Assembly: GCF_963506605.1 (NCBI RefSeq) | Contig: NC_083284.1 | Span: forward strand, 20,708,001 to 20,772,000 | DNA length: 64,000 nt | DNA from: Zootoca vivipara | Taxonomy: Eukaryota | Direction of reading: 5' to 3' | In this document: positions 49,901 through 52,900 of the stretch, one piece after another | Numbering within the stretch: position 1 is the stretch's first letter | Layout of the letters: the number at the start of each line of letters is the position of its first letter | Position numbers: made by a program

Positions 49901-52900
49901 TGTGTGTGTGTGTTGGATTTTCATCAGAACCATGGCAGGGGAAGGGTGGGGGAAGGACCTGTTGAATATTCATTCCCTGTGTCTGCAGTCATGGGATTGT
50001 TGTCTATCACATGACGGTATATGTTTTCATTCCACAGAGTGGGAAGTGACGAAGACAGGATGTTTTTGTTCCTTGAAGTGGGACTATTGTCCTTTGTTCT
50101 TTCTCTTTGCTGCCTGATGCTAGAGAGAGGGGTAGCCATGTTGCAGTGCTCCATGTGTGTTTATATGTAAATAAAATAGATTAGCCGAATGCTGAGTTGC
50201 TGAGGTCTGTTACGCAAACTGCAAAAACTCTGCGGATCCCTAAGCTTGCTAATGCTTTTTGGCATCAGTTGCTGTGAATTTCGTGCTGGAAAAAGCTTTT
50301 GAAGCTCCTGAACGATTGACCAGGAGGGAGAGAACATGCCAGTCAGGCATGCGTCTTTGCCACGGTCCTACTCATGAGTAGACGCTCCTGTAACAGGACC
50401 CACCCACCCACACTCTGGTCTTCATAAAAGATACACACACCCAGCCCCACACCTGTTACTGTTATTTTTAAAAACCCAAAGATGTTTTTACTGCCATACC
50501 TTATTCGGCCTTAAGGGAGCTAATGAGGGGGAGAATCAGGAGCCACAAGTTCCTGGGACTAAGGCCAGTGGGAGAAGCTGGCAGGAGGCAGGCTTCTGTG
50601 AGAACTAGGTCTGGCCAGCAATAACACCTAGTCAAGGCTGACTGTTCCTCACTGGAAGCCTGCCCAGTCTATGCCCACCGTTGAAGACGGCATACCTTTG
50701 AATACCACTTGCTGAGAATCACAAGTGTGGAGGTCTGTGTTGTACTTACGTCCTGCTCGCGGGCTTCCCATAGGAAGAGGCTGGGCGCTGTGAGAATAGG
50801 ATGCCAGACTGCATGGGCCCTTGGCCTTATCGGGCAGGGTTCTTCTCATGTTCCTAAAGTTTTGGGCTGCACATAATAACATTTTAAACCCCAGAAGCAA
50901 TAATAACAGAACAGGTAGAGTCGATAGACCTTTGGGCTTGTCCAGTAGGGTTGTCTTTACATCCTCGTAGCTCTCCCAGAACACGGAAACAATGGGATAC
51001 TTGGTTGTGAGGAGTCACTCTAGAGAACAGCTGGAAAAACTGTGGCCCTTCTGTTGTTGCCGACTACAGTTCCCACCATCATATTCTGCCTTGTTCAGGC
51101 CACACCTGGAATACTCTGTCCAGTTCTGGGCACTACAATTTAAAAAGGATACCGACAGTGCTATTTTTCTAGGGAAAGGTGCCAGAACTCACCATGAATG
51201 CCTCCCCTTTTCTCTTACAATGGCAATGGCGCCCACCTAAGAGGTGCCAGAACTGATTTTCTGTGAGTTCCGGCTGAAAAAATAGCCCTGGGTATTGACA
51301 ACTGGAATGTGTGCAGAGGAGGTCTGGAAACCAAGCCTAATGAGGAATGGTTAAGGGATATGGGGTATGTTTAGCTTGGAAGAGAGGAGGCTGAAAGGAG
51401 ATATGATAGCCATCTTCAAATATCTAAAGGGCTGCCACATGGAAGATGGAGCAAGCTTGTTATCTCCTGCTCCAGAGGGTAGGACCAGTACCAGTGGATT
51501 CAAGTTACAAGAAATGAGATTCTGACTAAACATCAGGAAGAACTTTCTGACAGGTAGGTAGCCGTGTTGGTCTGGCGCAGTCAAAACAAAATAAAAAAAA
51601 TCCCTCCAGTAGCACTTTAGAGACCAACTAAGTTTGTCATAGGTATGAGCTTTCATGTGCATGCACACTTATACCAACGACAAACTTAGTTGGTCTCTAA
51701 GGTGCTACTGGAAGGATTTTTTTATTTTGTTTTAACTTTCTGACAGTAAGAGCTGTTAAACAGTGGAATGGACTCCCACAGAAGGTGGTGAACTCTCTTT
51801 CATTGGATGTTTTAAGCAGATGTTGGATGGCCATCTGTAATGGATGCTTTAGTTGGATTCTTGCATTGCAGGGGGTTGGACTAGATGACCCTAGAGGTTC
51901 CTTCCACCTCTAGAATTCTATGATTTTATGGTTCCTGGCTGGGGCTGATGGGAATTGGAATCCAACAACATCTGGAGGGCTATGGGTTACCCATCCCTGT
52001 TCTAGACTCTGAGAGGATATCATGGACCAAGCAACTTTCTGAGGTGAGCCCGTTTCCTCACTCCATTGATCCTAAAGGTGGGGATTTGGAGGAGCATCTC
52101 CTCCCCCATTGTATCAGCCTGGACACTGAGGTCCACCTCTGGGGGCCTTCTGAGAGAACCCTGGGAGTTGTAGTTTACTCTCCACAGAACTCTTAGTTAG
52201 CACCCTTGGCAAACTACAGTGCTTGGGATTCTTTGGGGGAAAGCCACGTGCCTTAAATGTATGGTGTGGTCTGGATGTGACCCAAGTCTCTTTACTGATC
52301 AACCTCTGCCAGTCATCATGGAGGGTCATCAGTAGGAGATGCTTTAGTTGCGCCCTCCATTGGTGAGCCTGTATTGAGCAGGAGGTTGGGCTAGACAGAG
52401 ACCTTCTAACTCCACGATTGTGCCCTGTAAATATGTTTGTTGCTTTCTAGTGGCACTGGTTGTTATGATGGATGCACCTGGCACCCTCACTTTTCTCTTT
52501 CCAAGGAATAACCTCTCAGATAAACTGTGCCTTTGGGATGGAGGCCAACAAATCTCCTGCTGCTAGAAAGCCGTGTGTCAGTACAGATTGAATTTTGGTT
52601 GGTATTTGAAGCACGATGTACTTAGATGATCAGGCCTCAAGCTAGCCCTGTGAAATTTCACCCTCGATCGGAAGTACTTAGCAAATGTACAGACAGGTAC
52701 CTGTATTAGTCTGCTCCAGCTAGGAGAGTTTTGCAGGGCATTAACGACTAGCAAATTTGTTGTGGCATGAACTTTTTGTGGCTTATCAGAATGCTGTCAG
52801 TTCTGATTTCTCTGTCCAGTTCAAAGATTTCACCTCTGTAGTCAGGGCAGTCTCGAGCGGGTCGGCCGCCCTGGCGCTGAGGGGCGGAGATCGCTCCGGC

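What the first reader, a model, noticed from the sequence alone, without database searches (positions are those of the whole stretch)
51554..51733. Inversion junction lies exactly at the predicted ribozyme cleavage site
Seen: the antisense arm stops just past stem II (...GCACACTT, 51670). The sense arm begins with ATACC at 51671, the first nucleotides of the predicted 3' cleavage product. The host CR1 gives a clean empty-site reference and a 13-bp TSD. Inference: the reverse-transcribed RNA had a 5' end made by self-cleavage, which would be a genomic fossil of in vivo ribozyme activity. One copy plus CT microhomology could be chance.
Basis: partly seen in the sequence, partly recalled or inferred. 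Interest (0 to 1): 0.75.

Follow-up and report, generated by a model that had tools for sequence, protein, structure and literature searches.

The report
Penelope-like inverted insertion, hammerhead remnant
A 180-base head-to-head double copy of a small ribozyme-carrying retroelement sits inside an older CR1 repeat; its fold-over point coincides with the ribozyme's predicted cut site, but the neighbouring copies of the same element do not show this, so it looks like an ordinary Penelope-type insertion rather than proof that the ribozyme cuts in vivo.

Summary
The described anatomy is real. Window 51554-51733 is two inverted arms of one short retroelement, flanked by an exact 13-bp duplication and inserted in frame-continuous CR1 coding sequence. 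The element carries a minimal type I hammerhead of the kind described for Penelope-like elements (PLEs). Head-to-head arms, a 30-nt 'tail' on one arm only and a short target duplication are the published PLE insertion signature (PMC8557442, PMC3846280, PMC11167929).

The right arm does begin at the predicted first base after the cut. Three things weaken the claim:
- Ribozyme stem II is a perfect 14-nt DNA palindrome, so the junction can also be read as an axis in stem II plus a 6-nt deletion.
- The window holds only 4 loci and 7 arms of this family. One of 7 arms starts at +1, 5 of 7 read through the site, and the two youngest inverted loci read through on both arms.
- The chance of one exact hit among 7 arms is about 0.06-0.13.

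The genome-wide boundary histogram could not be run. Verdict: an ordinary PLE-type insertion; the 'fossil of in vivo self-cleavage' reading is neither supported nor excluded.

The parts
51541..51553 (.). Left copy of the 13-bp target-site duplication (AACTTTCTGACAG)
   Evidence: D7, exact repeat; one search shows it is in frame with the upstream CR1 reading frame
51554..51670 (-). Left arm, 117 nt; the ribozyme-sense strand is the minus strand. It runs from 24 nt upstream of the predicted cut site to the element's 3' end, which abuts the left duplication.
   Evidence: 93 nt from the cut site to the 3' end
51554..51583 (-). The 30-nt A+C-rich 'tail', present on the left arm only
   Evidence: 93 minus 63 nt. 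A 30-40-bp tail at one end is described for PLEs in PMC8557442, PMC3846280 and PMC11167929.
51642..51654 (-). Uncleaved copy of the cut-site context in the left arm (minus strand ..GAAAGCTC^ATACC); the cut position corresponds to 51647|51646
   Evidence: (A_anti_rc)
51655..51668 (.). Ribozyme stem II, a 14-nt palindrome with one decayed base at 51655; it can be assigned to either arm
   Evidence: alternative alignment; D1 shows the intact 14-mer at locus C
51671..51733 (+). Right arm, 63 nt. It starts at the predicted first base after the cut (ATACC) and ends at the T-rich stretch, without the tail.
51734..51746 (.). Right copy of the 13-bp target-site duplication
   Evidence: D7
51340..51930 (+). 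Host CR1-like 3' part: decayed ORF2 C-terminus and 3' octamers, interrupted by the insertion
   Evidence: frame continuity; octamers read; the CR1 name is partly recalled. The listing shows the octamer motif is a CR1 feature.
34393..34614 (.). Locus B, second inverted copy of the same family. Duplication TTTCCTCAGAGG at 34393-34404 and 34603-34614. Left arm to 34506, 22-nt filler 34507-34528, right arm 34529-34602. Both arms start 14 nt upstream of the cut site.
   Evidence: arms 79 nt, 99%; filler pieces are the reverse complement of 34485-34496
37027..37244 (.). Locus C, third inverted copy. Left arm 37051-37164, 4-nt spacer GTAT, right arm 37169-37227. Both arms hold the whole catalytic core. 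An 11-nt direct repeat lies at 37027-37037 and 37220-37230.
24082..24138 (+). Locus D, a single 5'-truncated arm of the same family, starting about 18 nt after the cut site

Best explanation
The locus is a dead-on-arrival, strongly 5'-truncated insertion of a short retroelement that carries a minimal hammerhead. It was made by the integration machinery of a Penelope-like element (PLE).

Shown:
- Two head-to-head arms of one sequence.
- A 13-bp target duplication.
- A 30-nt tail on one arm only.
- A palindromic stem II at or next to the junction.

Inferred:
- The target was nicked on both strands, 13 bp apart.
- The plus-strand 3'-OH at 51553 primed cDNA from the distal start site in the A+C-rich 3' region, giving the left arm with its tail.
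- The right arm ends about 30 nt short of that, at the second, tail-less start site.
- Both copies stopped in the ribozyme region. The inner ends were then joined either by fold-back (self-priming) or by joining two cDNA 3' ends with little or no homology.

On this reading the position of the joint at 51670|51671 is incidental. It is one outcome among the scattered joints that the family shows, and it says nothing about self-cleavage.
For: Architecture:
- Inverted arms and the duplication.
- Tail of 30 nt at locus A and 29 nt at locus B, on the left arm only.
- The right arms of A and B end within about 3 nt of each other, 63 and 60 nt after the cut site.

This matches published PLE features:
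- An inverted 5'-truncated copy and a 30-40-bp tail at one end (PMC8557442, passages).
- A 31-bp tail, 8-10-bp duplications and palindromes at inverted junctions, read by the authors as self-priming (PMC3846280, passages).
- The Anolis Poseidon protein nicks and extends both strands. It starts reverse transcription at two internal sites separated by the tail, and unprocessed RNA is its main substrate in vitro (PMC11167929, main text).

Geometry: the distance from cut site to distal 3' end is 93, 89 and 85 nt here. For the Anolis element I derive 85-92 nt (111-118 minus 26).

Junctions:
- Their positions are scattered. Arm starts are -24 and +1 (A), -14 and -14 (B), -30 and -34 (C), and about +18 (D).
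- The 22-nt filler at locus B consists of pieces that exactly copy nearby left-arm bases. That is the mark of microhomology-primed fold-back synthesis during joining (I2, I3).

Motif: it fits the min-HHR traits listed in PMC4209133: CUGAAGA, an extra base before stem II, a G-C closing pair, GAAA, palindromic GC at 15.2-16.2, and a 5-bp helix I.
Against: - The joint at locus A is blunt, has no filler, and falls with zero offset on the predicted cut. That is what run-off at a cleaved 5' end followed by a template jump would give.
- Six of the 7 arms stop within 35 nt of the cut site (5 inside the ribozyme, 1 at the cut). This suggests something special there, such as an RNA end or a block to the enzyme, that my explanation does not account for.
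- No reverse transcriptase or GIY-YIG domain was found in any of the 48 open frames of at least 110 codons in the window. No PLE sequence was at hand for comparison, so the PLE link rests on architecture and motif, not on homology.
- Rfam hammerhead models do not match.
- Folding the single-stranded cDNA ends predicts no stable primer pairing for a fold-back at locus A.
Confidence: 0.55

Rival explanations
1. The RNA copied into the right arm had been cut by its own hammerhead. Reverse transcription ran off the new 5'-OH end at AUACC, and the enzyme or repair joined that end to the other cDNA. The joint would then be a genomic fossil of in vivo self-cleavage.
For: - The right arm starts at the predicted +1 base with no filler.
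- 'TT' at 51669-51670 fits the left arm 2 of 2, against 1 of 2 for the right arm. The zero-offset reading therefore needs the fewest changes.
- The 3' cleavage product keeps both start sites for reverse transcription, so a cut RNA could still be copied.
- The Anolis PLE ribozyme cuts in vitro when the PLE protein is present (PMC11167929).
Against: - Only 1 of 7 arms starts at +1, and 5 of 7 read through the site. Both arms of the two youngest loci read through, and the filler at locus B spans the site.
- The chance of at least one exact hit among 7 arms is 0.055-0.125, before allowing for choosing the landmark after the fact.
- The left arm of the same locus came from uncut RNA.
- PMC11167929 reports no RNA-seq reads beginning or ending at the cut site, and reports that ribozyme mutants insert as well as wild type.
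- Min-HHRs cut poorly in vitro (PMC4209133).
Confidence: 0.2
2. Fold-back at the stem II palindrome followed by a small deletion. One cDNA copied through stem II and folded on that 14-nt palindrome. It then primed on itself, giving a palindrome centred at 51661|51662. The right arm later, or during repair, lost 6 nt (GAAAGC) and changed one base. The apparent joint at the cut site would be an alignment artefact.
For: - The local alignment places 51656-51667 in the right arm too, with a 6-column gap and one mismatch before ATACC.
- Locus B has its axis at exactly the stem II loop.
- Palindromes at PLE inverted junctions are reported and attributed to self-priming (PMC3846280).
Against:
- Elsewhere the arms of A differ only by 4 substitutions and one 1-nt indel.
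- The axis of locus C is not in stem II.
Confidence: 0.12
3. Later deletion at the palindrome centre. The insertion was first a nearly symmetric palindrome like locus C. About 40 nt were later lost between CTT in the left arm and CTC in the right arm, through slipped mispairing at the hairpin.
For: - CT is shared at the joint.
- Locus A is the oldest of the three: its arms are about 92% alike, against 99% and 98%.
- The region folds as a long DNA hairpin (-58.3 kcal/mol, z = -14.9). By general knowledge, long palindromes are prone to deletions at their centre.
Against: Only 2 nt of homology; no direct evidence of a longer ancestral state.
Confidence: 0.1

Closest known systems
Penelope-like element (PLE) insertions with inverted pseudo-LTRs and a one-sided 'tail' (Penelope/Poseidon/Neptune; PMC8557442, PMC3846280, PMC11167929)
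   Same: - A head-to-head inverted, 5'-truncated copy.
- A 29-30-nt extension on one arm only.
- Short target duplications of variable length (13, 12 and 11 bp).
- A palindrome at or near the inverted junction.
- A hammerhead motif in the repeat.
- A distance from cut site to 3' end (85-93 nt) like the 85-92 nt derived for the Anolis Poseidon element.
   Different: - No reverse transcriptase/GIY-YIG frame, no tandem or pseudo-LTR-ORF-pseudo-LTR arrangement, and no longer copy in the window.
- The unit seen is only about 125 nt.
- Its one ATG, in the stem II loop, runs into a stop after 9 codons, whereas the Anolis element's ORF starts at stem II.
- Sequence homology to a named PLE was not tested, because no reference sequence was at hand.
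Minimal type I hammerhead of metazoan PLEs (min-HHR; Cervera and de la Pena 2014, PMC4209133)
   Same: CUGANGA and GAAA boxes, an unpaired base between A9 and G10.1, a G10.1-C11.1 pair, a one-pair helix III with palindromic 15.2-16.2 (AGCU), and a 5-bp helix I. The paper reports such motifs in reptiles (turtle and snakes).
   Different: - Locus A itself keeps only stem II, GAAA and the cut site.
- The right arm of locus C has A in place of G12.
- Activity is untested.
- No Rfam hammerhead model matches.
Non-LTR retrozymes of animals (tandem hammerhead repeats that give circular RNAs; PMC7229834, bioRxiv 10.64898/2026.07.22.740005)
   Same: A short non-coding unit with a type I hammerhead. The preprint reports them in reptiles (mean consensus length 176 bp), with dispersed monomers, and argues that they derive from PLE pseudo-LTRs.
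   Different: No tandem copies in the window. All 4 loci are single or inverted.
L1 twin-priming inversions
   Same: An inverted 5' part joined to a sense 3' part within one pair of target duplications, with joints of little or no homology.
   Different: In twin priming the two parts come from adjacent, non-overlapping stretches of one RNA. Here the whole right arm (63 nt) is repeated in the left arm.
HDV-like ribozymes that define the 5' ends of R2 and other non-LTR retrotransposons (cited in PMC4209133)
   Different: There, by my recollection, the ribozyme lies at the 5' end and most full-length copies share the boundary. Here 1 of 7 arms does.

Membership tests
Minimal hammerhead of PLEs (min-HHR) | Catalytic boxes C3-U4-G5-A6-N7-G8-A9 and G12-A13-A14, followed by A15.1 .. 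U16.1 and H17 | tested here: met
   The pattern search finds the motif twice at locus C (0 and 1 mismatch), with 0.12 expected by chance. Locus A lacks the first box; loci A and B keep GAAA and GCTC^A.
Minimal hammerhead of PLEs (min-HHR) | An unpaired base between A9 and G10.1, a G10.1-C11.1 pair, and palindromic 15.2-16.2 | tested here: met
   Read: CTGAAGA-A-GTGTG..CACAC-GAAA-GC-TC. The traits are listed in PMC4209133.
Minimal hammerhead of PLEs (min-HHR) | Helix I of 4-5 bp and helix II formed | tested here: met
   The minimum-energy fold of 37164-37206 pairs GGUAU with AUACC and GUGUG with CACAC. The z-score is only -1.81, with 12 of 200 shuffles folding as well.
Minimal hammerhead of PLEs (min-HHR) | Self-cleavage at the predicted site | not testable with these tools
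   Needs transcription and cleavage assays, or mapping of RNA ends.
Rfam hammerhead families | A match to a curated covariance model | tested here: not met
   No match at gathering score in the whole window. No hammerhead family at E up to 10 around loci A and C. This is expected if helix III is a single pair.
PLE insertion architecture | An inverted 5'-truncated copy placed head to head | tested here: met
   3 of 4 loci of the family in the window.
PLE insertion architecture | A 30-40-bp tail at one end only | tested here: met
   30 nt at locus A and 29 nt at locus B, on the left arm only. The right arm of locus C ends earlier, so the tail cannot be judged there.
PLE insertion architecture | A short target-site duplication | tested here: met
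   13 bp (D7), 12 bp and 11 bp. The right edge of locus C is not fully resolved.
PLE insertion architecture | An ORF with telomerase-like reverse transcriptase and GIY-YIG endonuclease, and a tandem or pseudo-LTR arrangement | tested here: not met
   0 of 48 open frames of at least 110 codons carry such a Pfam domain. There are no tandem copies. The copies are therefore truncated or non-autonomous, and the partner element was not identified.
Non-LTR retrozyme | Head-to-tail tandem repeats of the hammerhead unit | tested here: not met
   nhmmer finds 7 arms in 4 loci, none in tandem. The window is only 64 kb.
L1-type twin priming | The two parts derive from adjacent, non-overlapping stretches of the RNA | tested here: not met
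   All 63 nt of the right arm are also present in the left arm.

The most novel reading that the evidence does not exclude
PLE minimal hammerheads do cut in vivo in this lineage. A fraction of head-to-head junctions then mark the cleaved 5'-OH end, captured when reverse transcription ran off it and jumped to the other cDNA. Junction maps of such inverted copies would give a genome-wide fossil record of ribozyme activity, for which neither RNA-seq nor in vitro work has found evidence.
Probability: 0.15. Interest if true: 0.65.

Novelty: new member of a known kind. Interest (0 to 1): 0.3.

Why it matters
What PLE hammerheads do is an open question.
- PMC8557442 calls their function unclear.
- PMC11167929 found no RNA ends at the cut site and found that cleavage is not needed for insertion in vitro.

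A clear excess of inverted-junction boundaries at the cut site would be the first in vivo trace of cleavage, and it could be obtained from genome sequence alone.

As it stands, the locus only adds an example of known PLE insertion anatomy. It also shows that the ribozyme's stem II doubles as the junction palindrome in this family, which makes single-locus readings of the joint unreliable.

Tried and rejected
- **Rfam.** The whole window at gathering score gave 0 matches. At E up to 10 around loci A and C there were only sub-threshold microRNA-like and other hairpin matches, caused by the inverted repeat, and no hammerhead family.
- **More copies in the window.** Tried a pattern search, blastn and nhmmer with a profile of the 7 arms. 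The result was 7 arms in 4 loci. Ten further nhmmer hits at E 0.56-8 were dropped as not significant.
- **Copies elsewhere.** One scan of genome contigs (bacteria and archaea) gave 0 hits.
- **A second CR1 copy as empty-site reference.** None in the window.
- **CR1 identity by database.** Pfam gave 0 families. A protein search of longer proteins gave 0 hits. The Atlas could not read the sequence.
- **Fold-back plausibility.** Folding the single-stranded cDNA ends gave no stable pairing of the 3' end at locus A or B. Three-base contacts would not show in such a fold, so this is uninformative.
- **L1-type twin priming.** Rejected, because the arms overlap fully.
- **Literature.** 'twin priming' plus 'ribozyme' gave 4 papers, none on PLEs by title. 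Six terms joining Penelope, inverted, truncated, hammerhead, cleavage site and junction gave 0 papers. Four of those terms gave 7 papers, 6 listed, and none by title or abstract is about junctions at the cut site. I therefore found no printed report of this idea in those searches.
- **Supplements.** The supplementary files of PMC11167929 and PMC4209133 (genomic end maps, reptile motif alignments) were not seen and may bear on it.

Full report
**What is at the coordinates**

- Bases 51554-51733 consist of two arms that are reverse complements of each other: 51554-51670 and 51671-51733 (I1).
- The exact 13-mer AACTTTCTGACAG lies on both sides, at 51541-51553 and 51734-51746 (D7).
- The left flank, read in the frame of that 13-mer, ends ..LNIRKNFLT. 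The right flank begins NFLTVRAVKQWNGLPQKVV... Removing the insert and one copy of the repeat restores a continuous, though decayed, reading frame.
- The host looks like the 3' part of a CR1. It has this C-terminal frame and two octamers, ATTCTATG and ATTTTATG, at 51915-51930. The motif ATTCTRTG occurs in 8 CR1 papers by search listing.
- The CR1 name is otherwise recalled. Pfam and a protein search found nothing. No second CR1 copy in the window spans the site.

**The element**

- A 26-nt core of the arms occurs 6 times in the window, against 0 expected.
- blastn and a profile search find 7 arms in 4 loci. Ten further profile hits at E 0.56-8 were left out.
- The loci are:
  - A, the finding.
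  - B at 34393-34614, inverted.
  - C at 37027-37244, inverted.
  - D at 24082-24138, a single arm.
- Locus C holds the complete motif on both arms: CTGAAGA, one extra A, a 14-nt stem II, GAAA, then GC, TC and ATACC. GGTAT upstream on the right arm pairs with ATACC.
- These are the traits that PMC4209133 (whole text read) lists for the minimal type I hammerhead of Penelope-like elements:
  - a base between positions 9 and 10.1;
  - a G10.1-C11.1 pair;
  - palindromic 15.2-16.2;
  - a short helix I;
  - a one-pair helix III that should need a dimer to act.
- No Rfam hammerhead model matches.
- Locus A itself has only a remnant: stem II, GAAA and the cut site on the left arm, with no first catalytic box.

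**Architecture**

- In A and B the left arm runs to the element's A+C-rich 3' end, which abuts the duplication. The right arm stops 30 and 29 nt short of it.
- The right arms of A and B end 63 and 60 nt after the cut site. The left arms of A, B and C end 93, 89 and 85 nt after it.
- Target duplications are 13, 12 and 11 bp.
- This is the published signature of PLE insertions:
  - strong 5' truncation, an adjacent inverted 5'-truncated copy, and a 30-40-bp tail often at one end only (PMC8557442, passages);
  - a 31-bp tail on one inverted pseudo-LTR, duplications of 8-10 bp, and palindromes at the inverted junction, which the authors read as self-priming (PMC3846280, passages).
- PMC11167929 (main text read) reports the following for the purified Anolis Poseidon protein:
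  - It nicks and extends both DNA strands.
  - It starts reverse transcription at two internal sites separated by the tail, the distal one in an A+C-rich stem-loop 111-118 nt into the ORF.
  - The hammerhead cuts 26 nt after the start codon.
- That gives 85-92 nt from cut site to start site, close to the 85-93 nt seen here.
- I could not test sequence homology to that element. No reverse transcriptase or GIY-YIG domain is found in any of the 48 open frames of at least 110 codons in the window.

**The junction**

Counting from the cut site (+1 is the A of ATACC), the inner ends of the 7 arms are:

| Locus | Left arm | Right arm |
|---|---|---|
| A | -24 | +1 |
| B | -14 | -14 |
| C | -30 | -34 |
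| D (single arm) | about +18 | |

- One of 7 arms starts at the cut site, 5 of 7 read through it, and 1 of 7 stops short.
- If boundaries fell evenly over the range observed, or over the arm length, at least one exact hit among 7 arms would occur with probability 0.055-0.125. That is before allowing for the landmark being chosen after the fact.
- The arms of B and C are 99% and 98% complementary. Those of A are about 92% alike (59 of 64 columns, my count). The only joint at the cut site is therefore in the oldest copy.
- Locus B has a 22-nt filler between the arms. Its pieces are exact reverse complements of left-arm bases 34485-34496, and each spans the cut site (I2, I3). This is the pattern of repeated, microhomology-primed fold-back synthesis while two ends were being joined.

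- Stem II (14 nt) is its own reverse complement.
- At locus A, bases 51655-51668 can therefore belong to either arm.
- A local alignment places them in the right arm too, at the cost of a 6-column gap and one mismatch before ATACC.
- On that reading the axis is in the stem II loop, as at locus B, and the joint at the cut site is an artefact.
- A third reading is a later deletion at the centre of a once symmetric palindrome, between CTT and CTC. The region is a strong DNA hairpin.

**Mechanism**

- Best supported: PLE-type integration with both strands nicked 13 bp apart.
- One cDNA started at the distal site and carries the tail. The other arm ends at the proximal site.
- Both stopped in the ribozyme region, and the inner ends were joined by fold-back or by end joining.
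- Shown: the arms, the tail, the duplications, the scattered joints and the templated filler.
- Inferred: the order of events, and whether there were two cDNAs or one that folded back.
- Not explained: why 6 of the 7 arms stop within 35 nt of the cut site (5 inside the ribozyme, 1 at the cut).
Against it, PMC11167929 found no RNA-seq reads ending at the cut site and found uncut RNA to be the main substrate.

**What stayed unchecked**

- The genome-wide histogram.
- Supplementary files of the papers.
- Homology to named PLE families.

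Noticed in passing
window 34507-34528: The 22-nt filler between the arms of locus B is made of two short pieces that exactly copy (as reverse complement) left-arm bases 34485-34496. Each piece starts after a 2-3-nt match. It looks like repeated fold-back synthesis during end joining.
   Followed up: partly
window 37027-37050 and 37220-37244: Locus C is more complex than a plain insertion.
- An exact 11-nt direct repeat (TGATCTTTGTG) overlaps the element's own sequence by 8 nt.
- 13 extra bases lie between the left repeat and the left arm.
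- A third stem-II-like 14-mer (12 of 14) follows the right repeat.
The right edge is unresolved.
   Followed up: partly
window 51156-51290: A second, separate insertion in the same CR1. It is about 135 bp long, with 13-nt terminal inverted repeats (92% complementary, I4). It is flanked by similar short direct repeats (GATACCGACA / GTATTGACA). It looks like a small DNA-transposon derivative.
   Followed up: no
window 11525-16555, minus strand: An open frame of 1,676 codons with a DUF4585 domain (E 3.8e-24); presumably one very large coding exon of a host gene.
   Followed up: no
window 40589-41011, plus strand: An open frame with a short match to the Isy1-like splicing factor family (E 1.4e-07), likely one exon. 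Loci B and C lie a few kb upstream of it.
   Followed up: no
window 51603-51714 and 37096-37242: The inverted copies give sub-threshold matches to many unrelated microRNA precursor models (best 50.9 and 66.1 bits, all below gathering score). These are hairpin artefacts, though transcripts through such loci would form long hairpins.
   Followed up: no
window 7597-7730 and 59912-60058: Two runs of N (134 and 147 bases); left untouched.
   Followed up: no
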